A stretch of 23,030 bases of DNA from the UHGV virus genome UHGV-0139916, one strand, 5' to 3'. How positions within the stretch are numbered: position 1 is the stretch's first letter; each line of letters starts with the position of its first letter. The stretch is from a virus. The notes under the pieces were generated by a model. The model was not told the origin of the DNA. It did no database searches and saw only the letters and a list, made by a program, of their open reading frames with translations. A program made the position numbers and the translations under genes. Of the stretch, positions 632-18,931 are shown in pieces.

Positions 632-2800
<2,169 letters not shown>

Positions 2801-2806
2801 TCACAT
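2801..2806. repeat. target-site duplication TCACAT (right copy)
   Basis: Same 6-mer as at 841-846, immediately outside the right IS terminus (...CGTGACA|TCACAT). Confidence 0.7.
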
Positions 2807-2937
2807 CGAAGAATATGAAAAAGGTGAAGACTTAATCTAACCTCCTACGGATGTTTTTTTATTGCCATCACAAAAGCCATTCCTTACAGAGTGGCTTTGA
2901 TAATGGATATCCCCACAAGCGGATAAAGAGGCTCTCA

Positions 2938-3063
2938 ATGTCCGACATCTACCAAATCACGTTAACCACCCAAACAGGCGAAACCTTTACGGGCAAGACG
3001 TCACGACGTCAGCCTGAGCTGGTTAATGGCTTTATGCAGCTGGCTACCGAGACGGGCGAGTAA
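2938..3063 (+). CDS. small hypothetical protein (41 aa)
   Basis: ATG 2938 with AAGAGG 6 nt upstream; translation MSDIYQITLTTQTGETFTGKTSRRQPELVNGFMQLATETGE. The track's longer 70-aa version (2851) lacks an RBS. No family recognised. Confidence 0.3.
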   Translation: MSDIYQITLTTQTGETFTGKTSRRQPELVNGFMQLATETGE

Positions 3064-3151
3064 ATAACTCCATTAGGAGAATGTGGAACCATTACACTTT
3101 GAGCCGTTAACTGATATTGATAAAGGTAAATAATATCTTGGTTAAGGTTTT

Positions 3152-3424
3152 CTAATAGCCAGCCATTTGCAAAATCACAGTTGCAGCAGCAGCGAAAGCT
3201 GCATATGAGTTATATTTAGACTGTAACCGCGCAGTTAAGAAAAATTCGTGAAGATCTACATTTTTTTTGGGATCATCAAATGTAATTGCTACAACGGTGC
3301 TTCTACCTGTTTTGACTTTGGCTGTTGCTGATTTGATCCATAACCCAGCCGATAAAAACCCAAAGAAAATCGATAGTGCATGATGGTCAATTAACCAGTT
3401 TTTAATTAGTAATAAATCACTCAT
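3152..3424 (-). CDS. possible small membrane protein (about 90 aa) antisense to the late operon, in an AT-rich stretch
   Basis: Minus-strand ORF with an internal ATG at 3424 (MSDLLLIKNWLIDHHALSIFFGFLSAGLWI...) and one hydrophobic segment. The track start at 3469 is TTG and overlaps the terS start. Weak RBS. Could be spurious. Confidence 0.25.
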   Translation of the reverse strand: MSDLLLIKNWLIDHHALSIFFGFLSAGLWIKSATAKVKTGRSTVVAITFDDPKKNVDLHEFFLTARLQSKYNSYAAFAAAATVILQMAGY

Positions 3425-3448
3425 TTTCAATCCAATTGAGACTTTGTC

Positions 3449-3976
3449 ATGGCACTCACCGACAAACAAGAGATGTTCTGTCGCGAGTACCTCATCGATT
3501 TAAACGCCACGCAAGCGGCTATTCGGGCGGGGTACAGCGCAAAGACAGCTAACCGTACCGCATCCGAAAACCTGTCAAAACCTGACATCAAGTTAAGAAT
3601 CGCCGAACTGAAAGCGCAACGCAATGATCTTGTTGGTATTAATGCAGAATATGTACTTAATCGCCTTATTGAAATCGACCAGATGGATGTGCTTGACATT
3701 CTCCTGCAAAACGGTGAGCTAAAGCCCATTAAAGACTGGCCTAAGGTATGGCGCACAACGCTATCAGGAATGGATGTTGTGGAGATGGTATCCGCAGATA
3801 GTGCCGCACTTCTGAAGAAAATCAAATGGCCAGATAAGGTCAAAAACCTCGAACTTCTTGGTAAGCATGTTTCCGTTCAGGCATTTAAAGAACAAGCTTC
3901 TCATGAGCTAACCGGCAAAGACGGCGGCGCAATCCAGATTGAAACATCACCGATGAGCACTCTATTCGGAAAATGA
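3449..3976 (+). CDS. terminase small subunit (Terminase_2-type)
   Basis: N-terminus MALTDKQEMFCREYLIDLNATQAAIRAGYS is the characteristic HTH start of this terS family. Sits immediately upstream of and overlapping the large terminase (ATGA). Confidence 0.85.
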   Translation: MALTDKQEMFCREYLIDLNATQAAIRAGYSAKTANRTASENLSKPDIKLRIAELKAQRNDLVGINAEYVLNRLIEIDQMDVLDILLQNGELKPIKDWPKVWRTTLSGMDVVEMVSADSAALLKKIKWPDKVKNLELLGKHVSVQAFKEQASHELTGKDGGAIQIETSPMSTLFGK

Positions 3977-5388
3977 CCTCGATTAATCCTATCTTTGAAC
4001 CGTTCATTGAGGCGCATCGCTACAAAGTCGCCAAAGGCGGTCGAGGTAGCGGTAAGTCATGGGCAATTGCGAGGCTGCTTGTTGAAGCGGCGCGTCGGCA
4101 GCCTGTGCGCATCCTCTGTGCTCGTGAACTGCAAAACAGTATCAGCGATTCGGTAATCCGGTTGCTTGAAGACACCATAGAGCGGGAAGGGTATTCGGCC
4201 GAGTTTGAAATTCAGCGTTCCATGATTCGTCATCTCGGAACGAATGCTGAATTCATGTTCTACGGCATCAAAAACAACCCGACGAAGATTAAATCGCTCG
4301 AAGGCATTGATATCTGCTGGGTGGAAGAAGCGGAAGCGGTAACGAAGGAATCGTGGGATATCCTGATACCAACCATCCGTAAGCCGTTCTCTGAAATATG
4401 GGTAAGCTTCAACCCGAAAAACATACTCGACGATACCTATCAGCGGTTCGTCGTAAATCCTCCCGATGATATTTGCCTGCTGACGGTGAACTACACCGAC
4501 AACCCGCACTTTCCTGAAGTTCTCCGTCTGGAGATGGAAGAGTGCAAACGCAGAAATCCGACACTGTATCGTCACATCTGGCTTGGTGAGCCAGTGAGCG
4601 CAAGTGATATGGCAATTATCAAACGTGAATGGCTTGAAGCCGCAACCGATGCGCACAAGAAACTCGGATGGAAGGCGAAAGGCGCTGTTGTCTCTGCGCA
4701 TGACCCGTCAGATACAGGACCGGATGCTAAAGGTTATGCATCGCGCCACGGTTCGGTAGTTAAGCGCATTGCCGAAGGTCTGCTGATGGACATCAACGAG
4801 GGTGCTGACTGGGCTACTTCGCTGGCGATTGAAGACTGCGCTGACCATTACCTGTGGGATGGCGATGGTGTCGGTGCAGGGCTACGCAGACAGACAACGG
4901 AAGCATTCTCCGGCAAGAAAATTACCGCCACGATGTTCAAGGGCAGCGAATCGCCATTCGATGAAGATGCGCCTTATCAGGCCGGAGCATGGGCTGATGA
5001 AGTCGTGCAGGGAGACAACGTTCGCACTATTGGCGATGTTTTCCGCAATAAGCGAGCGCAATTCTATTACGCACTGGCTGACAGGCTGTATCTGACATAT
5101 CGGGCGGTTGTTCACGGTGAGTATGCAGACCCCGACGACATGCTGAGCTTCGACAAAGAAGCGATAGGCGAGAAGATGCTTGAGAAGCTGTTTGCAGAAT
5201 TGACGCAGATTCAGCGCAAATTCAATAACAACGGGAAGCTGGAGCTAATGACTAAGGTCGAAATGAAGCAGAAGCTCGGTATTCCATCTCCTAACCTGGC
5301 TGATGCGTTGATGATGTGTATGCATTGCCCGGAGTCGGCTGCGCAACCCGACTATTCCAGTTACTCAATTCCTTGTGGTGTAGGTTGA
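3973..5388 (+). CDS. terminase large subunit (471 aa)
   Basis: Walker A-like KGGRGSGKSWA near the N-terminus, then a nuclease-type C-terminal half. Position and size fit the large terminase of Sf6/P22-like phages. Confidence 0.93.
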   Translation: MTSINPIFEPFIEAHRYKVAKGGRGSGKSWAIARLLVEAARRQPVRILCARELQNSISDSVIRLLEDTIEREGYSAEFEIQRSMIRHLGTNAEFMFYGIKNNPTKIKSLEGIDICWVEEAEAVTKESWDILIPTIRKPFSEIWVSFNPKNILDDTYQRFVVNPPDDICLLTVNYTDNPHFPEVLRLEMEECKRRNPTLYRHIWLGEPVSASDMAIIKREWLEAATDAHKKLGWKAKGAVVSAHDPSDTGPDAKGYASRHGSVVKRIAEGLLMDINEGADWATSLAIEDCADHYLWDGDGVGAGLRRQTTEAFSGKKITATMFKGSESPFDEDAPYQAGAWADEVVQGDNVRTIGDVFRNKRAQFYYALADRLYLTYRAVVHGEYADPDDMLSFDKEAIGEKMLEKLFAELTQIQRKFNNNGKLELMTKVEMKQKLGIPSPNLADALMMCMHCPESAAQPDYSSYSIPCGVG

Positions 5389-5389
5389 T

Positions 5390-7588
5390 ATGGCAGAAAA
5401 AAAGATGACTGACTGGCATCGCAAGGTGCTGTGCAACTTTGATAATGCCTGGTCAGCAACGCAGGATATGCGTGAGCAGATTATTGAGGCTCAACGTTTC
5501 GTCCGGGTGTCCGGCGCACAGTGGGAAGGCAGCACAAACGCTGGTTACTCATTTGATGAAGGCAGGTTTGAGCATTATCCGCGTTTTGAACTGAATAAGA
5601 TTTCCCGTGAATGTGATCGCATCATTGGCGAGTATCGACAGAATCGCATCAGCGTTAAATTCAGGCCGAAGGATGACAAGGCATCGGAAGCTTTAGCCGA
5701 AAAAATGAACGGCAAATTCCGCGCTGACTATCAGGAAACATCCGGTGGCGAAGCGTGTGATAACGCATTTGATGATGCCGTAACGGGTGGATTCGGTTGT
5801 TTCCGCATGTGTGCCGATTACGAAGATGAAATGGATCCGAGTAACGAGCAGCGCCGCATCAGCCTTCTTCCTGTTTACGACCCAGCGACATGCGTCTTCT
5901 TTGATCAGGACAGCAAGCAATATGACCGCTCTGATGCTATGTGGGCTATGGAAATGTTCTCCATGACGCCTAAAGCGTTCGAGGCTGAATACCCTGATTC
6001 CATCGCGGCAAGCCTTTCTCGTGATGACACTGGCACTCAATATGACTGGTCAACGCCAGATGCCATCTATGTTGGACGTTACTACGAAGTCCGCATAGAG
6101 AAGGTGAAGCTCACGGCGTGGCGCAACCCTGTTAGCGGAGAAACGGCAATCTATGATGAAGATCAAATCAAAGATATTGTCGACGAGCTAACCGATGGCG
6201 CATTCGAACTGATTGGTGAGCGAACGGTGAAGAAACGCCGCGTTTATTGCGGCCTTCTGTCTGGCGCTGAATGGCTGGAAGAACCGAAGCGTATTCCGGG
6301 CGAACATATTCCACTCATCCCGGTATATGGGCGTCGCTCATTTGTTGATAATCAGGAGCGAATCGAAGGACACGCAGCAAAAGCGATGGATGCACAGCGT
6401 CTTGAGAACCTGATGGTTTCCATGATTGCAGATAACGCGACTCAGGCTGGCGGTGATGGCATTCCTGTAGTTGATGTTGACATGATTCCTGGTCCTCTCG
6501 CCAATCATTGGGCGGAGCGCAACAAAAAGCGCCCGGCGTTCCTGCCGATGGTAAGTCTGAAAAACAAAAACGGAGATATTACTGCGCAGGCTCAGGTCAG
6601 CAGTTATACACCTCCGACACAAATGCCTCCTGCTCTTGCCGGGTTATTGCAGTACACCGGAACGGCTATTCAGCAAATTACCGGGGCTTCGCAGCTTGAG
6701 AACATGCCGAGCAACGTCGCCACCGATACCGTTGATAGCATCTTTAACCGGATGGACACGCAGTCCTATATCTACATGGACAACATGGCTAAATCCATGC
6801 GTCGCGCTGGCGTTGTGTGGCTTTCTATGGCGCGTGAGGTCTATGGCAGTGATACGCCGATGCGTATCGTGAATGAGGACGGCAGCGATGACGTGGCGCT
6901 GATGACTGGTGAAGTGGTTGACCGTCAGACAGGGCAGGTTATCGCGCTTAACGACCTTTCGCAGGGTAACTATGAAGTGACTGTCGATGTCGGTCAGTCG
7001 TTCGCTACTCGCCGTGATGCAACGGTTAAGTCGTTACTTTCCATGCTGGCACTTATCCCACCAGGAACGCCGAAGCACGACCTTGTATCGTCGATGATTC
7101 TCGACAATATGGACGGCGAAGGGATGGACGACCTTAAAGAATACAACCGCAATCAGTTGCTTCTGTCTGGAGTTATCAAGCCGAGAACACCAGAAGAACA
7201 GCAGATGGTTGAGCAGGCGAAACAACAACAGGCCAGTCAGCCAGATCCGGCTATGGTTGCTGCGCAAGGTCAGCTTCTTGCTGGTCAGGCTGAATTGCAG
7301 AAAGCGCAGAACGAACAAGCAGCCATTCAGGTTAAAGCATTCCAGGCACAGACGGATGCTCAGGTTGCTGCGGCAAATGTTGTGAAAATCCTCGCATCTG
7401 CCGATAGCCAGCAAAAATCTGATATCCGTGAGGCGCTGAAACTGCTCGGACAGTTCCAGCAACAGCAAGGAGATAATGCCCGTGCTGATGCAGAGCTTGT
7501 CCTGAAAAGTCAGGCACAGGGCCATGCGCAGCGCATGGACATCAGCAGCATCCTGCAAAAATCAACTCAGCAACAACCACAGCAGTAA
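5390..7588 (+). CDS. portal protein, P22 gp1-like (732 aa) with Gln-rich C-terminal helical tail
   Basis: Shares motifs with P22 gp1 as recalled (FD.AW near the N-terminus, FRPKD..., DYEDE). The long Q/A-rich C-terminus is consistent with the P22 portal barrel. Gene order terL-portal-scaffold-coat. Confidence 0.92.
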   Translation: MAEKKMTDWHRKVLCNFDNAWSATQDMREQIIEAQRFVRVSGAQWEGSTNAGYSFDEGRFEHYPRFELNKISRECDRIIGEYRQNRISVKFRPKDDKASEALAEKMNGKFRADYQETSGGEACDNAFDDAVTGGFGCFRMCADYEDEMDPSNEQRRISLLPVYDPATCVFFDQDSKQYDRSDAMWAMEMFSMTPKAFEAEYPDSIAASLSRDDTGTQYDWSTPDAIYVGRYYEVRIEKVKLTAWRNPVSGETAIYDEDQIKDIVDELTDGAFELIGERTVKKRRVYCGLLSGAEWLEEPKRIPGEHIPLIPVYGRRSFVDNQERIEGHAAKAMDAQRLENLMVSMIADNATQAGGDGIPVVDVDMIPGPLANHWAERNKKRPAFLPMVSLKNKNGDITAQAQVSSYTPPTQMPPALAGLLQYTGTAIQQITGASQLENMPSNVATDTVDSIFNRMDTQSYIYMDNMAKSMRRAGVVWLSMAREVYGSDTPMRIVNEDGSDDVALMTGEVVDRQTGQVIALNDLSQGNYEVTVDVGQSFATRRDATVKSLLSMLALIPPGTPKHDLVSSMILDNMDGEGMDDLKEYNRNQLLLSGVIKPRTPEEQQMVEQAKQQQASQPDPAMVAAQGQLLAGQAELQKAQNEQAAIQVKAFQAQTDAQVAAANVVKILASADSQQKSDIREALKLLGQFQQQQGDNARADAELVLKSQAQGHAQRMDISSILQKSTQQQPQQ

Positions 7589-7678
7589 TTAACCCATAAC
7601 GTGCAATGGCTGTCTTTATGAGGCCTGGCACCCTATTGCCTTCCGATGGGCTGAACATCGAGTAAACAGGGGTAACAA

Positions 7679-8572
7679 ATGGACCAGATGGCAGAAAACA
7701 CACCAGAAGTTGAAATCGAAACCGATACATCAGAGCAGATTCCTGATGATGTCGAACTGGCTGAAGAAGTCGAAACAGAAGATGGCAGTGAGTCCTCCGG
7801 CAATGATGCAGAGGAAGCTACTGAAACTGATGACGACGAATCAGAACAGGAATTCTACTTTGGTGACGAAAAGCTGGATTCGCCAACCAGTGAAGATAGC
7901 GCAGAGCATGGGCTGGTAAAACACCTGCGCAAGACGATTAAAGAGAAAGACCGCGAGCTGAAAGAGCTGATGCGTCAGTCTCAGAAACCCGTCGAGCAGC
8001 AGCCGGTAATCACTCAACCACCGCGAATGCCAAAACTGGATGATGAGGACATCGGTTTCGATGAAGAAATCTATCAGCAACGCATGGCTAAGTGGGCAGA
8101 GGATAACGGAAAGTACCAGCAACAGGAGATGGCTCGCAAGCAGAAGGAGCAGGAGCTTCAGGCTGCCTATCAAGAGCGATTATCCAAATATCAGCAACGT
8201 GTTAAGGCTCTCAAAGTTCCTGGCTATCAGGAAGCTGAGCAGGCCGTACTCGAGGAAATTCCCATCGAGACACAAAACGCGATCCTGTTTGAGTCAGAGA
8301 AGCCGGAAATCGTTGTTCTGGCGCTCGGTCGCAACGCTGAACTGCGCAAGCAACTGGCAGAAGCTACCAACCCCGTAGCAATTGGTCGTCTGCTGGAACG
8401 TATCGAATCGAAGGCCAGAATCATGCCAAAAGCAAAAACCACGGCAGCCACAACCCCGACAGTTAAGGGGAGCAACGGCGCAGTAATCAATAACCTCGAC
8501 AAACTGAAAGCCAAGGCGCTGGAAACTGGTGACTGGACGCCGTATTTCGCCGCTAAAAAGGCAAAAAAATAA
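7679..8572 (+). CDS. scaffolding protein (297 aa), P22 gp8-like
   Basis: Highly acidic N-terminus and a charged helical body; located between portal and coat; size near P22 gp8. AGGGG RBS upstream. Confidence 0.8.
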   Translation: MDQMAENTPEVEIETDTSEQIPDDVELAEEVETEDGSESSGNDAEEATETDDDESEQEFYFGDEKLDSPTSEDSAEHGLVKHLRKTIKEKDRELKELMRQSQKPVEQQPVITQPPRMPKLDDEDIGFDEEIYQQRMAKWAEDNGKYQQQEMARKQKEQELQAAYQERLSKYQQRVKALKVPGYQEAEQAVLEEIPIETQNAILFESEKPEIVVLALGRNAELRKQLAEATNPVAIGRLLERIESKARIMPKAKTTAATTPTVKGSNGAVINNLDKLKAKALETGDWTPYFAAKKAKK

Positions 8573-8590
8573 CCTATCGGAGCATTAAGC

Positions 8591-9844
8591 ATGGCTAACC
8601 AATTAGCAAAAGACCTTGAAATCATGTTCGAAAACTACGTTGAAGGCTTTGAGGCCGCCTGCGTAGTTTCCCGTAACGCTAAAAAATTCCGTCCCGGTGA
8701 TACAGCAATGCAGCGAGCAGGTGATGTTCTGTATCGTCCGCAGCATTACCACATGAACATTGAGGAAGGCCTCGACCTCAGCAGCAAAACGCCAACAGCA
8801 CTGGTTCAGCGCCTTGTTCCTTCTGTGTTCAAGGAGCCGAAAAACATTCTGTACACTCTGGATGCGCGTGAAATGCGTGACCCTGAGCATAAAACTGAAG
8901 CTGGTCGCGCCGCAGGTATGCGCCTTGCTGCACAGATTGACTCTGACCTGATTTCCATGGTCACGCAGCGTGCTACTAACGTGATCACAATGGCTGACTC
9001 AACCACTGGTTCACAGGGCCGTGATTTGTGGAACTGTGCGGCAGGTATTGATGCCACCATGACGGCGATTGGTGTACCTCAGGGTATCAACCGTCGCTCT
9101 TTCTGGAACCCCTTCAACTACAAAGACCTTGCTGGCGAGCTTGGTCACCGTGCCTATGCTCAGGGCGCAACCCTGACAGCATACGAAAAAGCGCAGATCC
9201 CTCCGGTTGCGTCCTTCGATAGCTACAAGACCGATATTTCTGGTCGTGTTCCGAAGGGTACAGCAACTTCCCTGACGCTGGCGGCTGAACCTGCGCACAA
9301 GGTTGAAGCGAAAGATGCTAACGATATGCCAGTGGATAACCGACAGGGGACCATTACGGTATCTGCTGAAGGTTTGCAGGTTGGCGATGCGTTTACCATC
9401 GCAGGGGTGAATTCCGTACACCAGATCACCAAAGATACCACCGGGCAGCCGCAGGTATTCCGCGTTCTGGCAGTAAGCGGAACGACAGTAACTATCTCCC
9501 CGAAAATTCTGCCGCCTGACAACGCGGATGTCGCCAGCCGACCATATGCAAACGTTGATGCTAACGCGGCAAATGGTGCAGCAATTACCATTCTCAACAA
9601 AAATGCCGCACCGGCTAACCTGTTCTGGGCTGATGGTTCTGTTGAGCTGATGTACGGCAAACTGGCGTTCCCGACTGGTCAGGGTCCACAGGTAATGACA
9701 GCAACCACCGAGCAGGGCGCTACGCTGATCATGTCTTACGCCTTCGACCACATCAAAGGCGTAACCACTGCTCGTTTCACCACTCTGTATGGTTGCTCTG
9801 TACTTGTTCCTGAATATACGGGCATCGTTATTGCCGGGCAGTAA
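8591..9844 (+). CDS. major capsid (coat) protein, P22 gp5-like (417 aa)
   Basis: Position after the scaffold gene. Recalled P22 coat similarities (e.g. NLFWADGSVEL versus P22 NVFWADDAIRI). Followed directly by a strong intrinsic terminator. Confidence 0.9.
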   Translation: MANQLAKDLEIMFENYVEGFEAACVVSRNAKKFRPGDTAMQRAGDVLYRPQHYHMNIEEGLDLSSKTPTALVQRLVPSVFKEPKNILYTLDAREMRDPEHKTEAGRAAGMRLAAQIDSDLISMVTQRATNVITMADSTTGSQGRDLWNCAAGIDATMTAIGVPQGINRRSFWNPFNYKDLAGELGHRAYAQGATLTAYEKAQIPPVASFDSYKTDISGRVPKGTATSLTLAAEPAHKVEAKDANDMPVDNRQGTITVSAEGLQVGDAFTIAGVNSVHQITKDTTGQPQVFRVLAVSGTTVTISPKILPPDNADVASRPYANVDANAANGAAITILNKNAAPANLFWADGSVELMYGKLAFPTGQGPQVMTATTEQGATLIMSYAFDHIKGVTTARFTTLYGCSVLVPEYTGIVIAGQ

Positions 9845-9850
9845 TTTTGG

Positions 9851-9874
9851 TGGGGCTTCGGCCCCATTTTTATT
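9851..9874 (+). terminator. rho-independent terminator after the coat gene
   Basis: GGGGC-TTCG-GCCCC stem-loop (9852-9865) followed by ATTTTTATT, immediately 3' of the coat stop codon. Confidence 0.7.
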
Positions 9875-9885
9875 GGGAGAAGACA

Positions 9886-10074
9886 ATGGCACGAACAATG
9901 CTCTATAAGCCTGGCAACATGATCACCTGTGGTCAGTTTGCTGTCGATTACATCATTGTTGATGACGAAGAAGTTAAATCTCACCTGAAAAAAGGTTGGG
10001 TAAAAACTCCTGAAGAAACCGCAACGAAGCAAAAAGTGGCTAAGGCGGAAGAAGATGGTGAAAACGAAGGGTGA
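9886..10074 (+). CDS. small hypothetical protein (62 aa) between coat and gp4-like genes
   Basis: ATG 9886 preceded by GGGAGAAG; translation MARTMLYKPGNMITCGQFAVDYIIVDDEEV... Its 3' end overlaps the next gene by 20 nt. No counterpart recalled at this position in P22. Confidence 0.45.
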   Translation: MARTMLYKPGNMITCGQFAVDYIIVDDEEVKSHLKKGWVKTPEETATKQKVAKAEEDGENEG

Positions 10075-10516
10075 TCTCGTTCTAAAGGCTTTACGAAAAG
10101 CCGGGCTGTATTCCAATGCCACGTTGACAGATGCTGACCCTCAGGAAATTGAAGATGCAATTAATGACCTCGAAGACATGATGGCAGCATGGCAGGCGAA
10201 AGGTATCGAGCTTGGGTATCAGTTTGCTGATACAGAAAACGGCATCATGCCGTTACCTGACGATGATTCAGGCATCCCTGCATGGGCAAATGATGGCGTC
10301 GCTTTGAAACTCGCTGTGCAAGTGTGCATGGATAATGTCATTCAGCCGTCAGACGCTCTCCTTACCGCTGCTGACAGTGCATATCAAACAATCTGTATCG
10401 CTTTAACCAAAATACCACCACTTGAGCGGCGAAATGACATGCCTCGCGGTAGTGGTAACAAAAGCGCGTTTACGTGGAATCGGTTTTACATCGAGAAAGA
10501 TGATCCGAGTACGTGA
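10055..10516 (+). CDS. tail adaptor / head completion protein, P22 gp4-like (153 aa)
   Basis: N-terminus MVKTKGDLVLKALRKAGLYSNATLTD resembles P22 gp4 (MQIKTKGDLVRAALRKLGV...) as recalled; synteny. Confidence 0.85.
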   Translation: MVKTKGDLVLKALRKAGLYSNATLTDADPQEIEDAINDLEDMMAAWQAKGIELGYQFADTENGIMPLPDDDSGIPAWANDGVALKLAVQVCMDNVIQPSDALLTAADSAYQTICIALTKIPPLERRNDMPRGSGNKSAFTWNRFYIEKDDPST

Positions 10517-10525
10517 GGTGAATAA

Positions 10526-11944
10526 ATGCCGATTCAGCAACTTCCGCTCATGAAAGGCGTCGGCAAAGACTTTAGAAACGCCGACTATATCGACTATCTG
10601 CCAGTGAATATGTTGGCTACACCCAAAGAAATCCTGAACAGCAGCGGATATCTTCGCTCATTCCCTGGCATTGCCAAACGCTCTGATGTGAACGGTGTAT
10701 CTCGCGGCGTCGAGTACAACATGGCGCAGAATGCTGTTTATCGCGTGTGTGGTGGCAAGCTCTACAAAGGCGAAAGCGAAGTAGGTGACGTCGCCGGAAG
10801 TGGTCGCGTATCAATGGCGCATGGTCGAACATCTCAGGCGGTAGGTGTTAACGGTCAACTGGTCGAGTATCGCTATGATGGCACGGTTAAAACCGTCTCA
10901 AACTGGCCTACAGACAGCGGATTCACGCAGTATGAGTTAGGTTCGGTTCGTGACATTACACGCTTACGTGGGCGTTATGCGTGGTCAAAAGACGGTACTG
11001 ATTCATGGTTTATCACTGACCTTGAAGACGAATCACATCCTGACCGATACAGCGCACAATATCGTGCCGAGTCTCAGCCTGACGGTATTATCGGCATCGG
11101 AACATGGCGAGACTTCATCGTCTGCTTTGGTTCATCGACGATTGAATATTTCTCCCTGACTGGCGCAACCACTGTTGGTGCCGCTTTGTATGTCGCACAG
11201 ACATCGCTGATGGTGCAAAAAGGAATAGCCGGGACTTACTGCAAAACACCATTCGCTGATTCTTATGCGTTCATCAGCAATCCGGCAACAGGTGCGCCGT
11301 CTGTGTATATCATCGGCTCCGGGCAGGTGTCACCAATCGCCAGCGCGAGCATTGAGAAAATTCTCCGCTCCTACACTGCTGATGAACTGGCTGATGGCGT
11401 GATGGAATCGTTGCGGTTTGATGCGCATGAGTTGCTGATTATCCATCTTCCGCGTCACGTCCTCGTGTACGACGCATCTTCAAGCGCCAATGGCCCACAA
11501 TGGTGTGTACTGAAAACAGGCCTGTATGACGATGTGTACCGCGCTATCGACTTCATTTACGAAGGCAATCAGATAACGTGCGGCGATAAGCTGGAATCGG
11601 TGACCGGGAAATTGCAATTCGATATCAGCAGCCAGTACGACAAGCAACAGGAACACCTTCTGTTTACTCCGTTGTTCAAAGCGGATAACGCCAGATGCTT
11701 CGATCTGGAGGTGGAATCATCCACTGGCGTAGCTCAGTACGCCGACCGCCTGTTCCTCTCTGCAACCACTGACGGCATCAATTACGGGCGAGAGCAGATG
11801 ATTGAGCAGAATGAACCGTTCGTTTACGACAAAAGCGTTTTGTGGAAGCGAGTCGGGCGCATCAGGAAAAATGTCGGCTTCAAATTGCGCGTTATCACGA
11901 AGTCACCTGTCACTCTGTCTGGCTGCCAGATAAGGATCGAGTAA
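10526..11944 (+). CDS. tail hub protein, P22 gp10-like (472 aa)
   Basis: Synteny (after gp4-like, before the needle) and the same length as P22 gp10. Stop overlaps the needle start (TAATG). Confidence 0.85.
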
Positions 11945-12645
11945 TGGCTGATTCGAATCTCAACACCCCTGTTATTGTGCAGGCGACGCGGCTCGATACA
12001 TCAATCCTTCCACGCAATATATTCAGCCAGTCTTACCTGCTGTATGTCATTAATCAGGGGGCTGATGTCGGCGCAATTGCCGGGAAGGCAAATCAGGCTG
12101 GTCAGGGCGCTTACGATGCTCAGGTGAAAAACGATGAACAGGACGTCGAACTGGCTGATCACGACGCAAGAATCACCGCAAGCACAAAAGCGATAAATCT
12201 ACTTGAGGTCAGGTTAACAACTGCCGAAGGGAAGATAGTCGTACTGCGTAGCGATGTTGATTACTTGCTGGATGAGGTTATCGATATTCAGGCGCATCTG
12301 GTCACTGTTGACCAAAGACTGGATGACGTAGAAAACGATGTCTCTGGCATTAAGAGTGATTACGTATCGAAAACCGTAACCGAATTGCAGTCTCTTGAGT
12401 CACCGCTGGATGTAAAAACATCATATTCAGTTGATGGAATTCAGGTTGTTGGAGCAAGAAATACCGGATGGACTGCAGCCACAGGTACGCCACTTCTTGG
12501 CTCATTCAACGCTAACCAGTCATACACTGTCGGCACTACGTACACGCAATCCGAAGTCGCCGCTCTCGCTACAGGTTTGCAGCAGGCGCGGCAGCGTATT
12601 CTGGCGCTTGAAACGGCACTTAGATTACATGGGCTGATTGACTGA
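11944..12645 (+). CDS. tail needle, P22 gp26-like (233 aa)
   Basis: From ATG 11944: [77 protein letters not shown]... closely matches P22 gp26 as recalled, including the C-terminal ...LRLHGLID. The track's upstream extension (11842) is the 3' end of the gp10-like gene read in another frame. Confidence 0.9.
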
Positions 12646-13100
12646 TGATTACATTCAAACCAACGCGAAACATCGACCTGATCGAAGCAGTAGGAAATCA
12701 CCCTGACATCATCGCCGGGAGCAACAACGGTGATGGATACGACTACAAACCTGATTGCCGTTACTTTGAGGTGAACGTGCACGGTCAGTTTGGCGGCATT
12801 GTTTACTATCAGGAGATTCAGCCGCTGACATTCGATTGCCACGCCATGTACCTGCCAGAGGTTCGTGGATTCAGCAAGGAAATCGGGCTGGCGTTCTGGC
12901 GATACATTCTGACTAACACCACTGTTCAGTGTGTCACATCGTTCGCTGCACGCAAATTCCGCCACGGGCAGATGTACTGCGCAATGATTGGCCTTAATCG
13001 TGTAGGAACCATCAAGAAATACTTCAAAGGCGTGGATGACGTGACGTTTTACAGCGCCACACGCGAAGAACTAATCGACTTCCTGAATCACAGGAGATAG
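12645..13100 (+). CDS. P22 gp14-like protein (151 aa)
   Basis: Synteny between the needle and the gp7-like gene; start overlaps the needle stop (TGATG). Sequence not independently recognised. Confidence 0.65.
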   Translation: MITFKPTRNIDLIEAVGNHPDIIAGSNNGDGYDYKPDCRYFEVNVHGQFGGIVYYQEIQPLTFDCHAMYLPEVRGFSKEIGLAFWRYILTNTTVQCVTSFAARKFRHGQMYCAMIGLNRVGTIKKYFKGVDDVTFYSATREELIDFLNHRR

Positions 13101-13102
13101 CC

Positions 13103-13795
13103 ATGTTATATGCATTTAAGCTGGGCAGAAAACTGCGTGGCGAGGAACCTTATTGCCCTGAAAAAGGTGGGAAAGGTGGCAGTTCTGATAAAAGCGCAAA
13201 GTATGCAGCAGAAGCTCAGAAGTATGCCGCAGACCTGCAAAATCAGCAGTTCAACACCATCATGAATAACCTGAAGCCGTTTACTCCTCTGGCTGAGAAG
13301 TATGTCGGCAGCCTCGAGAACTTATCGTCTCTGGAGGGGCAAGGTCAGGCACTTAACCAGTATTACAACTCTCAGCAGTATAAAGACCTTGCAGGTCAGG
13401 CTCGCTATCAGAGTCTGGCGGCAGCGGAAGCAACAGGTGGATTGGGTTCCACCGCAACCAGTAATCAGTTAGCAACAATCGCACCAACGCTTGGTCAGCA
13501 ATGGCTATCTGGACAAATGAACAATTACAACAACCTGGCAAATATCGGTCTTGGCGCTCTTCAGGGGCAGGCAAACGCCGGGCAAACATATGCCAACAAC
13601 ATGAGTCAGATTTCACAGCAAAGCGCGGCGCTGGCTGCGGCAAACGCCAACCGACCGTCAGCATTGCAGCAGGGGGTTAGTGGTGCTGCATCCGGTGCGC
13701 TTTTGGGTGGTGGCATAGCCAGTGCTCTCGAGCTATCAACTCCGTGGGGTGCTGGTATCGGTGCTGGTCTTGGTCTGCTTGGCTCGTTGTTTTAA
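13103..13795 (+). CDS. ejection protein, P22 gp7-like (230 aa)
   Basis: Synteny and length (P22 gp7 about 229 aa); Gly/Ala/Gln-rich C-terminal half. Confidence 0.78.
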   Translation: MLYAFKLGRKLRGEEPYCPEKGGKGGSSDKSAKYAAEAQKYAADLQNQQFNTIMNNLKPFTPLAEKYVGSLENLSSLEGQGQALNQYYNSQQYKDLAGQARYQSLAAAEATGGLGSTATSNQLATIAPTLGQQWLSGQMNNYNNLANIGLGALQGQANAGQTYANNMSQISQQSAALAAANANRPSALQQGVSGAASGALLGGGIASALELSTPWGAGIGAGLGLLGSLF

Positions 13796-13805
13796 GGGGT
13801 AATCA

Positions 13806-15218
13806 ATGGCTACGTGGCAACAGGGTATTAATTCTGGTGGTTTTCTGGCTGGCATTGGTGCGCAAAACGAGAATGCGCCAAAGGCAAGCGACATTAACGC
13901 AACGCTTGGTCTGATCCGCGAAAACAATGAACTGGCTCGATCAGGTGCAAATAACGTTGGTCTGACCGCGTTACGTGGTCTGGCTGGAGTTGCTGATATT
14001 TATAAGCAGGAACAGCAACAGAAAGCTATTAGTGCGTTCAATAAGGTTCACGCTGATGCATGGGCTTCTGGTGATCCATCGGGACTATTTAAGTTTGCCC
14101 AGGAAAATCCAGCGTTTGTTGCACAGGCACAACAGGCGTTTTCCGGTCTTAATGAGCAGCAACGCAACGATATGGGCGATTTAGCCATGAGGGCTAACGT
14201 CGCTCTTTCTCAGGGACCGGAAGCCTACAGTAAATTCATTACTGACAACAAGGACAGGTTAAATCGCGTGGGTGCTAATGCTGACTGGATGATTCAGACA
14301 GGTATCCAGAATCCCGAGCAGCTATCACACATGCTGACTACTATGTCTCTCGGTGCACTTGGGCCAGAAAAGGCGTTTGCTGTTCAGGACAAGATAGCTG
14401 GTCGTGAGATTGACCGAGGCAGGCTGGCAGAGACAATCCGCAGCAATCAGGCTGGCGAGGCGCTAACAGCACGAGGCCAGAACATCACGATGCGCGGTCA
14501 GGACTTATCTGCTTCTACTACGCGACGCGGTCAGGATTTAGCGATGCAGAGAGCATCAATGAAAGGGGCGGTTGGGAATAATGAGCGCACAGTTCAACTA
14601 GCAGACGGAAGAACTGTAACCGTAGGCGGGAAACTTCATGGTGCTGGTGCTAACGCGTTCTACGAAGGTATAGACAATGAGGGGAACATGGTTCGCGTTC
14701 CTGCTGGCTCTATTGCTGCTCCGGCCACGTCGGCAGCAAGCGCGCAGAATTACGCAATGAAGAAAGATCTTGATGCAATTTCTGGTGCATCAATTGACGA
14801 TCTTGGCTTCATGACTGGCATTACAGGCTTTTCAGGTTCTCCTGCTCTTGGTGCAGATATTCGTAGCCGTGCATCTGGTGGTGATCAGAGGAAACTATAC
14901 AACGCTGCACAGCGAATCCAAGGAAAGATGCAGAATCAGGGCATTGCAGCAGCCAGAGACATGGGGGCATCCGGTATCAACACCGTTGCAGAAGCAAAGA
15001 TGTATTTTCAAGGTATGCCACAGGTTGATTTCTCAAGCCCTGAAGCACTGCAACAATCAATGCGCGACATTCAGCAATATACCGACAATTACAACCAGCA
15101 ATATAACGTTAATGTCGGTAATGGAGGGAAGAAATCATCAATGCAACAGCCGCCTACTCAGCAATCAGCAGGAGGTAGCTACACGTCAAAATCAGGCATT
15201 CAATTTACGGTGGAATGA
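13806..15218 (+). CDS. ejection protein, P22 gp20-like (470 aa)
   Basis: Synteny and length (P22 gp20 about 471 aa). Confidence 0.78.
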
Positions 15219-17056
15219 TGAAAGTAACTGCAAACGGTAAGACATTTACCTTTCCTGATGGTACGAGCACCGAAGATATTGGCACCGCCATTGATGAGTA
15301 TTTTGCTGGTCAGGCTGTTCAGCAACAAATAGTTAATCAGGCCAATAATGCACCAACACGGGAAGAACCATCATTGATGCAACAAGCTGGCGATTGGCTC
15401 ACTGGTGGTCAAAGTGCAGGGCAAATTGCAGAACAGGCTGGTCGTGGTCTGGTAAACATACCATTTGACGTATTACAGGGCGGCGCAAGTCTGATTAATG
15501 CAATCAGTCAGGGGCTTGGTGGCCCCAAGGTTTTGGATGATGTCTATCGTCCAGTCGATCGACCGACAGACCCCTACGCTCAAGCTGGAGAAACAATTGG
15601 CGGGTATTTAGTTCCAGGAGTTGGAACGGCAGGAAGCATGGCTATTGGATCACTGGCAGAAGCCGCGAACCAGAAAGGCGATTTCGCGCAAAATGCAGCC
15701 ATAAACGCCGGAGTTAACCTTGCCGCTCAGGGTGTTCTTTCCGCAGCAGCAAAGGGAATAGGGCGTGGAATAACTGCTATAAAAGGCGATATCGCGCCAG
15801 AAGTAGCGAAAAAAATTGCCACCTCAGAATCGATGGGCGTGACACCAATGACATCTGATGTTATCCCGCCGAAAAATGCTTTCACTCGCGGACTTACTCA
15901 GGATGCTGAGGGGGCTTTGCTCGGGACAGGCTCAAAGCGAGCGGAGCAATATGCAACGCGTAGTAAGCTGGTAAGCAATTATTTTGACCGTTTTGGTGAG
16001 TACAACCCTGATGATGTGGTGAAATCTCTGACCACCACGTTAAGGGGACGGAAGGAGGCCGCTGGCGCTGTTATCAATGACGTCACCAATAAAATGGGTA
16101 ATGCCGCAGTTGATACCACAAATACCATGAATGCTCTGAATACAGCGATCGCAAGACAGGAACGGCTTGGGACGTCTGCCAATCAAAGCCTGCTTACATC
16201 CTTGCGTAACCTACGTGAAGAATTAGCAAACCCTGCAACTGATTTGGATGTTACGTTTGATCTCCTACGTCAGCACAGAACAGCATTTAGATCTAATGTT
16301 CAGGGGGATGCTATGGTCTTCCCCAACCAGGCAAAAGCAGCTACCAATATGGTAGAGAATGCAATGTCAAAAGACCTTCGTAACGCAGTTGCAAAAAACC
16401 TCGGTGCATCAGACGCAGCAAAATACCTTAAAGCAAATTCCGATTATGCAAACGTTTATAATAAGGTGCTTAATAAAAACATTGCTAACAAGCTCAACAA
16501 GGCAAGCAGTGAAGCCAGTCCTGAACTTATAAATACTGTTGTATTAAGCAGAAAACCATCTGACGTGAAACGAATCTGGAGCGCATTGGATGATAAAGGG
16601 AAAGATGCTATGCGTGCAGCTTACGTCAGCAAAATAGCGGAAAAGGCCGGTGACTCTCCAGCCAAGTTCATCACGGAAGTTAATAAGCTGAAATCTCAGT
16701 CAGGCGGTGAAATTTACAACACTATTTTTTCTGGAAAGCACATGAAAGAACTTGATGCTCTTCATGAAGTTCTACAGCAAACAGCAAGATCAGACACCGC
16801 AAATGTAGTAACTCAGACGGGGCAATCGCAAGCCAACAGGATAAGGACGATTGGCGCAACTACGACTCTTGGCGTATCAATGGGGCTTGAGGCTGGTTTC
16901 GGTGCAATGATGCGCTTGTATGAATCCAAAGCAGCAAGGAATGCGCTCTTACGTCTGGCAAACACTAAAGCTGGAACGCCAGCTTATGAAAGAGCGCTAA
17001 ATCAGGCGGCTACTGCCGTGCGCCCGCTCTTAGTTAACGAAGCTACCCGGCAGTAG
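15215..17056 (+). CDS. ejection protein, P22 gp16-like (613 aa)
   Basis: Synteny and length (P22 gp16 about 609 aa); ATGA start/stop overlap with the preceding gene. Confidence 0.78.
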
Positions 17057-17078
17057 CACTGTAAGCCAAGGACGGCAT

Positions 17079-17573
17079 TTATTTTATAGTTTTTATGAAT
17101 TCTTTATTAAATCCCTTCGCTTCTCCGGGGTATCTTCCGAAGACAATTTTTATAAAAACAGAAAAAATAAAGATAGCAAAGCTTAACAACAATTGCAGTA
17201 TCATTGGAACCCAAAGAACTACAGGCTCTATATTCATGAAACCAAATATTCTTCCGGCGATCATGGCGAAGTACCACACTGTTATCAGCAAACTTAGTGG
17301 CATATGAATTACTGATATTACCAATCCAAGAGCATCAGTAATTCTGTTTTCAAATTTTTCAGGGGAAAACTTTTCTTTAAGGTAATTCAGTGCGCAGGCC
17401 TCATTCTCTGGATTTTCAGCATTTTTCCCTATAGCAATAGAAATCTCAGATATCCTTGATTCAATTCTTTTACGTTTAATAAAACTAGAAAAAAAGAACC
17501 ACGCAATCTGCAACCCTATCCCCAGAAATAGAGTTGCGGCAACTAGCACAGCGTAACTCATAGAATCAGACAC
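17079..17573 (-). CDS. AT-rich integral membrane protein (about 160-164 aa, 3 predicted TM helices); candidate superinfection-exclusion protein at the P22 sieA position
   Basis: Minus-strand ORF. AAGGAGG lies 5 nt upstream of an in-frame GTG (plus 17571-17573); ATG at 17561 is the alternative start. Three hydrophobic segments ([21 protein letters not shown]; [26 protein letters not shown]; [28 protein letters not shown]). The SieA analogy is positional only. Confidence 0.6.
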
Positions 17574-17603
17574 ACCAACCTCCTTAGTTTTGCGCAGGAT
17601 ACC

Positions 17604-17969
17604 ATGAAAAAAGTTAACATTGGAAACGTACCAAAGATGCTCGTTCCGCTCTTTGAGAGCGGTACAATTGTGTTTTGTAGAGACTTTCCAGAATGGCAAC
17701 GCCTGCATCAAAAACTTGGCGTTGACGTGCATGACTCGGACGCCAACGGAGCGTCTCATACAATGAGTAGCGAGAATGGTGTTTTGCATGTGATAGGCGT
17801 GTTCAATGGCAAACTATCTACTATTGCCCATGAGTGCGCTCACATGGCATTCGATATCTGCTCAAGGGTAGGTGTTGATGTTGAACCAGGAAGAGCCAAC
17901 GAGACTTACTGCTACTTAATGAGCAGGCTTGTTGAGTTCTGCGAGCGACATATCAAAAAGCCGGAGTGA
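17604..17969 (+). CDS. hypothetical protein (121 aa) with an HExxH motif ([11 protein letters not shown]); possible small zincin-like metalloprotein
   Basis: ORF divergent from the membrane protein, weak AGGA RBS. The single HECAH motif is followed by acidic residues. No family confidently recognised. Confidence 0.5.
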
Positions 17970-17974
17970 CCGGC
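17955..17974 (-). terminator. stem-loop between convergent genes; terminator for the minus-strand mnt/YjzC-like transcript
   Basis: GCCGG-AGTGA-CCGGC (17960-17974) with AAAAA on the plus strand just 5' (TTTTT on the minus strand after the stem). The stop codon of the plus-strand gene lies in the loop. Confidence 0.5.
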
Positions 17975-17981
17975 TTGATTA

Positions 17982-18161
17982 TTACTTTTTGCTGTCTGGA
18001 GTTCGCTTATCCAATACCCAGACATGACCTGGCTTTGTTGTTGGTGGAAGCCTTTCGTTGTCCTTGACGGTGGCAAAATTGTCTTTCTTACCGCCGCGTG
18101 GGCCAACTTCTTGGTATATTCCGCCGTTTTTTCCTGTGTTTTCACCTGGTTTTTTCGCCAT
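17982..18161 (-). CDS. small Gly/Lys-rich protein (59 aa), YjzC-like
   Basis: ATG at 18161 with GAGGT 5 nt upstream; MAKKPGENTGKNGGIYQEVGPRGGKKDNFATVKDNERLPPTTKPGHVWVLDKRTPDSKK. The family assignment is from memory of the YjzC pattern and is unverified. Confidence 0.5.
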   Translation of the reverse strand: MAKKPGENTGKNGGIYQEVGPRGGKKDNFATVKDNERLPPTTKPGHVWVLDKRTPDSKK

Positions 18162-18254
18162 GATATACCTCAACATACACCCGTTATTGGGCGATTAAAT
18201 ATTGATCTCATTTTATAAGTAGTCAATATGGCCCAAGTAAATGCAAAAATTAAC

Positions 18255-18275
18255 CCACCGTCAGGTGGTTTTTTT
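18255..18275 (+). terminator. plus-strand intrinsic terminator embedded in the 3' codons of mnt
   Basis: CCACC-GTCA-GGTGG followed by seven T on the plus strand. The same bases encode ...KKTT-stop of Mnt on the minus strand. Confidence 0.45.
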
Positions 18276-18588: not shown

Positions 18589-18931
18589 CGTATTTTTTGA
18601 TTGATAATGAATCACTGCGGCGATTCCTTGTATTTGGAGCAAATTAAATGACAGATATTATAAATAGGAATTGTTATTTAATAATGTTTGAAAATAAAAA
18701 TCATGGACGATAGGAATAAAGGTAGTACTTGTTTTTATTTTTGTAAGTGACGCATTAAGCGCATAAATAATATGCCTGTTGATCAAGATTCTTGAGTATT
18801 GTAAAATAATCGTTTTGTTCATGTTGCATGGTTTTTAAATGAATAGAAGGTTATTTTTCAAAACAATTGCATCTTTGTCTGCAGTCATTCCGTTTTCTTC
18901 AATATCTAAATCTTCAAACAGGATGACTAAT

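What the first reader, a model, noticed from the sequence alone, without database searches (positions are those of the whole stretch)
3449..17056. Mosaic morphogenesis module: P22-like portal-to-ejection genes with a different terminase pair
Portal, scaffold, coat, gp4, gp10, gp26, gp14, gp7, gp20 and gp16 equivalents follow P22 order and nearly P22 lengths. The 175-aa small terminase has a different N-terminal HTH type (Terminase_2-like) from what I recall for P22 gp3, and the large terminase is the size of Sf6 gp2 (about 470 aa) rather than P22 gp2 (about 499 aa). That would indicate modular exchange of the packaging genes and possibly a different packaging site.
Basis: partly seen in the sequence, partly recalled or inferred. 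Interest (0 to 1): 0.2.

Follow-up and report, generated by a model that had tools for sequence, protein, structure and literature searches.

The report
CUS-3-like prophage with chimeric small terminase
This is the virion-assembly operon of an ordinary P22-like (CUS-3-type) E. coli prophage; its one unusual gene is a small terminase that joins an SPP1/SF6-type DNA-recognition body to the short Sf6/CUS-3 tail, a kind of domain swap already described for this phage group.

Summary
Window 3449-17056 carries 13 intact genes in P22 order with near-P22 lengths.

- **Backbone.** It is not P22-type. TerL, portal, scaffold, coat and gp4 are 95-100% identical to phage CUS-3. To P22, portal, scaffold, coat and gp4 are only 26-44% identical, and TerL has no significant BLASTP match.
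- **TerL.** It is native to this lineage, at 99.8% identity to Sf6 gp2 (PDB 4IDH). It was not swapped in.
- **What was exchanged.** Only the first ~147 codons of terS. A sharp breakpoint lies at nt 3891/3892. Upstream (2907-3891) is 97% identical to a non-P22-like E. coli prophage. Downstream (3892-14404) is 96% identical to CUS-3.
- **The chimeric TerS.** It has a Terminase_2 body like Bacillus phage SF6 G1P. Its last 24 residues are identical to the CUS-3 TerS tail.
- **Frequency.** The same fusion occurs in 30 of 5,426 complete E. coli genomes, but in no deposited phage.
- **Related proteins.** Related TerS bodies carry 9 different tails, and the five tail classes checked sit beside five different TerL types.
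- **Ejection genes.** gp20, gp16 and sieA are P22-related rather than CUS-3-like.

Segmental terS exchange in P22-like phages is published (Leavitt et al. 2013). A different pac site is likely but untested. This is an ordinary new member of a known kind.

The parts
2907..3448 (.). Segment upstream of terS that came with the terS body. It holds a small minus-strand ORF (3152-3469, phrog_14357, unknown function).
   Evidence: 97% nt identity to the E. coli 300709 prophage over 2907-3891. PHROG hit. It is not a Pid homologue.
3449..3891 (+). terS, 5' part (codons 1-147): Terminase_2-type body, with an N-terminal HTH DNA-binding domain and a helical oligomerisation core.
   Evidence: Pfam PF03592, 9e-40. 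Residues 3-76 match Bacillus phage SF6 G1P (PDB 3ZQP, 2e-11). 97% nt identity to a non-P22-like prophage. The AF2 model is confident only for residues 1-60.
3892..3976 (+). terS, 3' part (codons 148-175): C-terminal tail of Sf6/CUS-3 type, inferred to dock TerL.
   Evidence: CUS-3 DNA homology begins at 3892. The last 24 aa are identical to the CUS-3 TerS and 22/24 to Sf6 gp1. Residues 143-175 match Sf6 gp1 108-140 (PDB 4DYC/3HEF, 4e-8). The tail is predicted disordered.
3973..5388 (+). terL, large terminase of Sf6 gp2 type (471 aa).
   Evidence: 99.6% identical to CUS-3 and 99.8% to Sf6 gp2 over residues 1-453. PDB 4IDH at E=0. Pfam Terminase_3.
5390..7588 (+). Portal protein, CUS-3 type (732 aa).
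   Evidence: Pfam P22_portal, 2e-170. 99% identical to CUS-3, 55% to Sf6, 36% to P22.
7679..8572 (+). Scaffolding protein, CUS-3 type.
   Evidence: phrog_648, head scaffolding. 99% to CUS-3, 26% to P22.
8591..9844 (+). Coat protein, CUS-3 type.
   Evidence: Pfam P22_CoatProtein, 6e-75. 95% to CUS-3, 30% to P22.
9886..10074 (+). Small ORF (62 aa) in the position of P22 ORF69 / HK620 hkbT.
   Evidence: 98-100% identical to the CUS-3 and phiv205-1 ORFs. phrog_1175.
10055..10516 (+). gp4 homologue (tail accessory / head completion).
   Evidence: Pfam P22_Tail-4. 99% to CUS-3, 44% to P22.
10526..11944 (+). gp10 homologue.
   Evidence: Pfam Phage_stabilise, 5e-300. 99% to CUS-3/Sf6, 93% to P22.
11944..12645 (+). 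gp26 tail needle.
   Evidence: phrog_1219, tail needle. 96% to CUS-3, 67% to P22.
12645..13100 (+). gp14 homologue.
   Evidence: Pfam DUF2824. 98% to CUS-3, 90% to P22.
13103..13795 (+). gp7 ejection protein.
   Evidence: Pfam P22_gp7, 3e-132. 98% to CUS-3, 86% to P22.
13806..15218 (+). gp20 ejection protein. It is mosaic: CUS-3 homology ends at about 14404.
   Evidence: Pfam Inj_translocase. 94% to phiv205-1, 85% to P22, 58% to CUS-3. Identity profile.
15215..17056 (+). gp16 ejection protein, a divergent P22-type.
   Evidence: phrog_770, DNA transfer protein. 76% to P22, 54% to phiv205-1, 41% to CUS-3.

Best explanation
The region is the late (packaging, head, tail-hub, ejection) operon of a CUS-3-type member of the P22-like phages (genus Lederbergvirus), present as a prophage.

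**The packaging motor.** It pairs the Sf6/CUS-3-type large terminase with a chimeric small terminase. Codons 1-147 encode a Terminase_2 body (SPP1/SF6 G1P-like): a helix-turn-helix DNA-binding domain plus an oligomerisation core. Nearly the same DNA is found in a non-P22-like lambdoid prophage of E. coli. Codons 148-175 encode the same short C-terminal tail carried by the otherwise unrelated TerS proteins of CUS-3 and Sf6.

**How it arose.** The gene was made by recombination at nt 3891/3892, just upstream of a short motif, E-x-T-G-x-(D/N)-G-G, that several of the tail classes share. The direction of the exchange is not known.

**How it works (inferred).** The tail docks the TerS ring onto the Sf6-type TerL. 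The foreign body decides which DNA is recognised. The phage should therefore package by the headful mechanism, starting from a pac site unlike those of P22, Sf6 and CUS-3. That site most probably lies inside the exchanged terS coding segment.

**Downstream.** The ejection genes gp20 (C-terminal part) and gp16, and sieA, come from a P22-related source. The operon is a patchwork of at least three sources.
For: **Shown here**
- One CUS-3 homology block covers 3892-14404 at 96.2% nt. Homology to the E. coli 300709 prophage covers 2907-3891 at 97%. The two abut exactly.
- That donor-type prophage has an unrelated 540-aa TerL and a DUF1073 portal.
- The last 24 aa of TerS are identical to CUS-3, and 22/24 to Sf6/HK620, while the bodies do not align.
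- PDB matches split the protein the same way: residues 3-76 to Bacillus SF6 G1P, and 143-175 to Shigella Sf6 gp1 108-140.
- TerL matches Sf6 gp2 (PDB 4IDH) at E=0.
- The fusion is intact and recurs in 30 of 5,426 complete E. coli genomes. It occurs in both CUS-3-type and Sf6-type procapsid backgrounds.
- Among 22 representative homologues, the body (aa 1-146) averages 84% identity while the tails fall into 9 classes.
- The five tail classes whose neighbours I checked sit next to five TerL types that share at most about 35% identity over part of their length, or no match at all.
- In E. coli A11, Cronobacter phage ES2 and the P22 relic, homology to the window starts at the terS start codon. The coding segment is therefore the only DNA that always travels with the body.

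**From the literature**
- The TerS C-terminus binds TerL and the N-terminus binds DNA (PMC4669245 introduction).
[quoted passage not shown] 2013).
Against: - No experiment or read-mapping shows where packaging starts, so the pac claim is inference only.
- The structure model is confident only for residues 1-60 (mean pLDDT 62), so the oligomerisation core is assigned by family membership.
- An IS100 sits in the late operon upstream of terS (847-2800). It could reduce late transcription in this particular copy.
- The direction of exchange, and which parent was ancestral, cannot be decided. A decayed Terminase_2 terS relic in P22 shows this TerS type is old in the group.
- Tail and TerL pairing was checked in only five tail classes.
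Confidence: 0.85

Rival explanations
1. One reading: a P22-type portal-to-ejection module into which a foreign terminase pair (terS and terL together) was exchanged as one unit.
For: Gene order and lengths match P22. Both terminase subunits belong to Pfam families different from P22 gp3/gp2.
Against: Portal, scaffold, coat and gp4 are 26-44% identical to P22 but 95-99% to CUS-3. terL lies inside the same uninterrupted 96% CUS-3 block as those genes, and the breakpoint is inside terS, not after terL.
Confidence: 0.04
2. The direction is reversed. The Terminase_2-bodied terS is the older state in P22-like phages. The CUS-3, Sf6 and P22 TerS bodies are later replacements, and the non-P22-like prophage acquired its body from a P22-like phage.
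For: P22 and about 30 Salmonella relatives keep a decayed relic of the first ~89 codons of this terS type just upstream of ORF80 and gene 3. The fusion is found in both CUS-3-type and Sf6-type backgrounds.
Against: The Terminase_2 body is far more widespread outside P22-like phages, across Enterobacteriaceae and with many TerL types. The upstream 540 bp also matches the non-P22-like prophage.
Confidence: 0.25
3. The chimeric terS is a dead by-product in a decaying, non-inducible prophage and has no packaging function.
For: IS100 is inserted in the late operon 650 bp upstream of terS and interrupts a small gene. No deposited phage isolate carries this TerS at 80% identity or more.
Against: All 13 structural ORFs are full length. 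The same in-frame fusion is conserved at 96-98% nt in 30 complete genomes and two procapsid backgrounds. Its protein cluster has 224 member sequences. The IS100 is a simple recent insertion with a target duplication and does not touch terS.
Confidence: 0.08
4. The junction is an assembly artefact that joins two different prophages.
For: The breakpoint is very sharp and both flanks have 96-97% matches elsewhere.
Against: The identical junction is present in 30 independently finished E. coli genomes and in several draft assemblies. The reading frame is preserved.
Confidence: 0.01

Closest known systems
Enterobacteria phage CUS-3 (CP000711) and Escherichia phage phiv205-1 (MN340231)
   Same: terL through gp7 are 95-100% identical in protein and about 96% in DNA. 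Gene order is the same, the portal, scaffold and coat are of the same CUS-3 type, and the last 24 TerS residues are the same.
   Different: The CUS-3 TerS is 146 aa with an unrelated body and no Pfam family. hkbM, which lies upstream of terS in CUS-3, is absent here. gp20 (C-terminal part) and gp16 are 58% and 41% identical. The tailspike receptor domain differs.
Shigella phage Sf6 terminase (gp1, PDB 3HEF/4DYC; gp2, PDB 4IDH)
   Same: TerL is 99.8% identical over residues 1-453. The TerS tail, residues 143-175, matches gp1 108-140.
   Different: Sf6 gp1 has a Pfam Sf6_terminase body with no similarity to this body. The last ~18 TerL residues, the portal (55%), the scaffold and the coat (22%) are of another type.
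Bacillus phage SF6 / SPP1 G1P small terminase (Pfam Terminase_2, PDB 3ZQP/3ZQQ, 2CMP, 4ZC3)
   Same: The N-terminal HTH DNA-binding domain and part of the core align (residues 3-76, E=2e-11). They belong to the same Pfam family.
   Different: The relationship is distant. The C-terminal TerL-binding segment differs and the partner TerL is different.
Salmonella phage P22 gp3/gp2
   Same: The position in the operon and the overall role in pac/headful packaging (role inferred). P22 also retains a decayed relic of this window's terS type.
   Different: gp3 is GP3_package and gp2 is Terminase_6N/6C. BLASTP finds no significant match to the window proteins.
Segmental horizontal exchange of terS in P22-like phages (Leavitt, Gilcrease, Wilson & Casjens 2013, Virology 440:117; summarised in PMC4669245)
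   Same: [quoted passage not shown]
   Different: I could not read the 2013 paper. I therefore cannot say whether this exact Terminase_2-bodied variant is among the types it lists.

Membership tests
P22-like phages (Lederbergvirus) virion assembly operon | Gene order terS-terL-portal-scaffold-coat-small ORF-gp4-gp10-gp26-gp14-gp7-gp20-gp16 | tested here: met
   ORF map compared with the annotated P22, CUS-3, HK620 and Sf6 operons.
P22-like phages (Lederbergvirus) virion assembly operon | P22-family portal, coat, gp4, gp10, gp7 and gp20 domains | tested here: met
   Pfam P22_portal, P22_CoatProtein, P22_Tail-4, Phage_stabilise, P22_gp7 and Inj_translocase, all far above their cut-offs.
CUS-3-type procapsid gene set (as opposed to P22-type or Sf6-type) | Portal, scaffold and coat sequences of the CUS-3 type | tested here: met
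   99/99/95% identical to CUS-3, 55/34/22% to Sf6 and 36/26/30% to P22.
Terminase_2 small terminases (SPP1/SF6 G1P-like, PF03592) | Profile match above the curated cut-off over the body | tested here: met
   137 bits against a cut-off of 26.1, residues 3-151.
Terminase_2 small terminases (SPP1/SF6 G1P-like, PF03592) | N-terminal helix-turn-helix DNA-binding domain like G1P | tested here: met
   Residues 3-76 align to PDB 3ZQP, 4ZC3 and 2CMP (2e-11 to 1e-9). The AF2 model shows helices 5-17, 20-26 and 34-43 at pLDDT 79-89.
Terminase_2 small terminases (SPP1/SF6 G1P-like, PF03592) | Ring oligomer that binds pac DNA | not testable with these tools
   The monomer model has low confidence beyond residue 60. 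No binding data are available.
P22 gp3-type small terminase (GP3_package, PF16677) | Sequence or profile similarity to gp3 | tested here: not met
   No Pfam hit and no significant BLASTP match to P22 gp3.
Sf6 gp1-type small terminase (Sf6_terminase, PF20901) | Sf6-type DNA-binding and oligomerisation body (gp1 residues 13-118) | tested here: not met
   No Pfam hit to PF20901. Only residues 140-175 align to gp1 105-140.
Sf6 gp2-type large terminase (Terminase_3; PDB 4IDH) | Full-length similarity to gp2, covering the ATPase and nuclease domains | tested here: met
   99.8% identity over 453 aa. PDB 4IDH at 1047 bits, and the nuclease domain 5C12.
P22 gp2-type large terminase (Terminase_6N/6C) | Terminase_6N and Terminase_6C profile matches above the cut-offs | tested here: not met
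   Terminase_6N scores 21.7 bits, below its cut-off of 22. There is no Terminase_6C hit and no significant BLASTP match.

The most novel reading that the evidence does not exclude
The Terminase_2 body of enterobacterial phages acts as a portable pac-recognition cassette with fixed joints, at the terS start codon on the left and around codon 147 on the right. Swapping only a 24-49-residue C-terminal adaptor has plugged it into at least five unrelated large terminases. P22 itself once carried this cassette: its decayed relic lies directly upstream of, and divergent from, the pid ORFan gene, inside the 'moron' locus. Part of the pid control region may therefore be derived from a dead terS.
Probability: 0.35. 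Interest if true: 0.35.

Novelty: new member of a known kind. Interest (0 to 1): 0.15.

Why it matters
The practical value is modest.

- **Annotation.** This prophage group should be labelled CUS-3-type with an Sf6-type TerL, not 'P22 with new terminases'.
- **A natural domain swap.** It marks where the TerL-specific part of TerS begins, at about residue 148 of 175. That gives a ready-made design rule for engineering packaging specificity or transducing particles in P22-like vectors.
- **Transduction.** It predicts a pac specificity not represented among studied P22-like phages. This bears on which host DNA such prophages would transduce.

The concept itself, segmental terS exchange, is already published.

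Tried and rejected
- **Primary papers.** I tried to read Leavitt et al. 2013, Casjens & Thuman-Commike 2011 and Casjens & Grose 2016. None is held. I relied on a citing paper and on my own recollection of the 2013 abstract.
- **pac-like repeats.** A repeat search over 2800-4100 found only short two-copy matches. These are not distinguishable from chance, so I propose no pac site.
- **Pid.** The minus-strand ORF upstream of terS (3152-3469) is not a Pid homologue; BLASTP found no alignment.
- **Structure model.** AlphaFold2 on a 22-sequence alignment gave mean pLDDT 62, with only residues 1-60 confident. I ran no fold search, because sequence matches to solved TerS structures were already significant.
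- **RNA genes.** Rfam and tRNA scans of the window found nothing.
- **Source genome.** No complete RefSeq E. coli genome holds the terS-terL segment at 99% or more; the best is 98.3%. The source strain was not identified.


Full report
**What is in the window.**
The ORF list shows an uninterrupted plus-strand series from 3449 to 17056.
- Pfam assigns the products to Terminase_2, Terminase_3, P22_portal, P22_CoatProtein, P22_Tail-4, Phage_stabilise, DUF2824 (gp14), P22_gp7 and Inj_translocase (gp20).
- PHROGs assigns the scaffold, the tail needle (gp26) and the DNA transfer protein (gp16).
- Megablast of the whole window against deposited phages finds 378 records, nearly all P22-like phages (Lederbergvirus). 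The best are phiv205-1 and CUS-3 at about 96% identity.
This is the late operon of a P22-like prophage, in P22 gene order and with near-P22 protein lengths.

**Which P22-like type it is.**
I extracted the 13 proteins and aligned each to its counterpart in CUS-3, phiv205-1, HK620, Sf6 and P22.
- TerL, portal, scaffold, coat, the 62-aa ORF and gp4 are 95-100% identical to CUS-3.
- Against P22, the portal, scaffold, coat and gp4 are only 36, 26, 30 and 44% identical. Against Sf6 they are 55, 34, 22 and 42%.
- gp10, gp14 and gp7 are conserved in all five phages.
- gp20 is 94% identical to phiv205-1, 85% to P22 and 58% to CUS-3.
- gp16 is 76% identical to P22 and 41% to CUS-3.
- The backbone is therefore CUS-3-type, not P22-type, with P22-related ejection genes.

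**The large terminase.**
- TerL (471 aa) is 99.6% identical to CUS-3 TerL and 99.8% identical to Sf6 gp2 over residues 1-453.
- It matches the solved Sf6 gp2 structures (4IDH, 5C12) at E=0.
- It has no significant BLASTP match to P22 gp2, which belongs to Terminase_6N/6C rather than Terminase_3.
- However, terL lies inside a single 10.5-kb block (3892-14404) that is 96.2% identical in DNA to CUS-3. It is native to this lineage and was not imported.

**The small terminase is a chimera.**
- TerS (175 aa) is Pfam Terminase_2 (137 bits). P22 gp3 is GP3_package, Sf6 gp1 is Sf6_terminase, and the CUS-3 TerS has no Pfam family.
- By BLASTP, only the C-terminal end resembles the CUS-3, Sf6 and HK620 TerS proteins.
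- In a multiple alignment the last 24 residues (HELTGKDGGAIQIETSPMSTLFGK) are identical to CUS-3. They differ at two positions from Sf6 and HK620. The bodies do not align.
- A search of solved structures divides the protein the same way. Residues 3-76 match Bacillus phage SF6 G1P (3ZQP, 2e-11; also 4ZC3 and 2CMP). Residues 143-175 match Shigella phage Sf6 gp1 residues 108-140 (4e-8).
- At the DNA level the joint is exact. Window 2907-3891 is 97% identical to a prophage of E. coli 300709, and CUS-3 homology begins at 3892.
- The 300709 prophage is not P22-like. Its terS is followed by an unrelated 540-aa TerL, a DUF1073 portal and DUF2184-type head genes.
- The breakpoint falls at terS codon 148. 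It lies just before a short motif, E-x-T-G-x-(D/N)-G-G, that several of the tail classes share. That motif could have provided the homology for the crossover; this is inference.

**Is the fusion real and functional?**
- The same in-frame terS-terL junction is present at 96-98% identity in 30 of 5,426 complete E. coli genomes.
- In E. coli A11 it sits in a complete P22-like prophage of the Sf6 procapsid type: portal 708 aa, coat 423 aa.
- A variant with a different N-terminal 70 residues but the same tail sits in CUS-3-type prophages in three further assemblies.
- The protein's 90% cluster has 224 member sequences.
- No deposited phage genome encodes a TerS 80% or more identical. The best are Cronobacter phage ES2 (77%) and Erwinia phage Midgardsormr38 (79%).
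- Recurrence in two backgrounds with an intact frame argues for function and against an assembly artefact.

**Body and tail behave as separate modules.**
- Among 22 representative homologues, residues 1-146 average 84% pairwise identity, and the invariant columns stop at F146.
- The remaining 24-49 residues average 32% identity and fall into nine classes.
- For the five tail classes whose neighbours I examined, the adjacent TerL differs each time:
  - Sf6-type, 471 aa, Terminase_3 (window).
  - A 540-aa TerL (E. coli 300709).
  - A 506-aa TerL with Terminase_6C (phage ES2).
  - A 490-aa TerL (Klebsiella).
  - A 417-aa TerL with Terminase_3/3C (Enterobacter).
- These TerLs share at most about 35% identity over part of their length, or nothing detectable.
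- This fits the established domain plan of TerS: N-terminal DNA binding, central oligomerisation, C-terminal TerL binding (PMC4669245 introduction).
- The AlphaFold2 model adds little. Only the helix-turn-helix region (1-60) is confident, and the tail (149-175) is predicted disordered.

**Mechanism.**
- Shown: the domain composition, the breakpoint, its recurrence, and the pairing of tails with TerL types.
- Inferred: the tail docks the TerS ring on the Sf6-type TerL. The foreign body selects the packaging start. The phage therefore packages by the headful mechanism from a pac site unlike those of P22, Sf6 or CUS-3.
- In E. coli A11, phage ES2 and a relic in P22, homology to the window begins at the terS start codon. 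The only DNA that always accompanies the body is thus its own coding sequence.
- That is where pac lies in P22 and Sf6, according to my recollection of Wu et al. 2002 and Leavitt et al. 2013, which I could not read here. I therefore expect pac within 3449-3891.
- A repeat search gave nothing convincing.

**Comparison with what is known.**
- Segmental horizontal transfer of terS among P22-like phages, and between them and outside phages, has been described by Leavitt et al. 2013. [quoted passage not shown]
- The divergence of TerS between Sf6 and P22 is also noted in a review.
- The window is a further example, possibly of a type not yet represented by an isolated phage.
- I file it as a new member of a known kind, with low interest.

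- The picture of a P22 module with a swapped terminase pair is wrong in two respects. The head genes are CUS-3-type, and terL was not exchanged.
- Relative to the closest relatives, the exchanged units are five-sixths of terS plus 540 bp upstream, and the gp20(C-terminal part)-gp16-sieA stretch.

**Other things seen.**
1. P22 and about 30 Salmonella relatives carry a frameshifted, stop-containing relic of the first ~89 codons of this terS type. It lies between pid and ORF80, about 450 bp upstream of gene 3. The pid papers do not mention it.
2. An IS100 copy (847-2800) is a simple insertion with a TCACAT target duplication, inside a small gene between Rz and terS. Its istB carries a nonsense change.
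3. A sieA homologue (17079-17573, minus strand) and its surroundings are 94-99% identical in DNA to P22.
4. The tailspike joins a P22-type head-binding domain to a receptor domain 81% identical to that of phage Pollock, and ends in a Peptidase_S74 chaperone.
5. A low-GC family-2 glycosyltransferase gene follows the tailspike on the minus strand.

Noticed in passing
L002:3697-3960 (phage P22 AF217253 nt ~22495-22758; NC_002371.2 ~40744-41007); homologous to window 3450-3699: P22 itself holds a decayed relic (frameshift plus in-frame stops) of the first ~89 codons of a Terminase_2-type terS. The relic is 74% nt identical to the window's terS. It lies head-to-head with the pid ORFan gene, just upstream of ORF80 and gene 3, and inside the published 'pid moron locus' (40357-40998). 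About 30 Salmonella P22-like phages, including BTP1, carry it at 99% identity or more. The two pid papers never mention terminase.
   Followed up: partly
window 847-2800 (minus strand): A complete 1,954-bp IS100 (IS21 family) lies between Rz and terS. It has a TCACAT target duplication and interrupts an 82-aa gene of unknown function (phrog_35226; ORF 632-862). It differs from a reference copy at 3 positions. One of these (1409) creates a stop codon in istB, so this copy probably cannot transpose without help. It may also affect late-operon read-through.
   Followed up: yes
window 17079-17573 (minus strand) and 17000-18250: A SieA-like superinfection exclusion gene (phrog_7745) and the DNA beyond it are 94-99% identical in DNA to Salmonella phage P22, although the head genes are E. 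coli CUS-3-type. Part of this stretch (17566-18291) is also 98% identical to HK620. gp16 next to it is also P22-related, so gp16 and sieA may travel together.
   Followed up: partly
window 18839-21430 (+): The 863-aa tailspike has a P22-type head-binding domain (residues 32-144). Residues 145-837 are 81% identical to the tailspike of Escherichia phage Pollock, a 68-kb phage with no other reported match to the window. A C-terminal Peptidase_S74 intramolecular chaperone follows. The same tailspike is present at 98.5% nt in E. coli AST215. Receptor specificity is unknown.
   Followed up: partly
window 21660-22793 (minus strand); low-GC stretch 21500-23030: A 377-aa family-2 glycosyltransferase gene lies in 32-36% GC DNA directly after the tailspike. 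This is where P22-like prophages carry O-antigen-modifying conversion genes. It is 82% nt identical to one E. coli gene and about 75% to a GT2 gene of E. coli B REL606.
   Followed up: no
window 5332-5388 (TerL C-terminus): TerL is 99.8% identical in protein to Sf6 gp2 up to residue 453, although the DNA is only about 88% identical. It then diverges over the last ~18 residues, where it matches CUS-3. This end may be matched to the portal type (inference). The near-identical protein with many DNA differences points to strong purifying selection on TerL.
   Followed up: no
L011-L013:6001-6531 (protein P0012): A second Terminase_2 variant occurs in CUS-3-type prophages. It has the same core and the same Sf6/CUS-3 tail but a different first ~70 residues (the HTH domain). 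This suggests a further exchange joint between the DNA-binding domain and the oligomerisation core.
   Followed up: no
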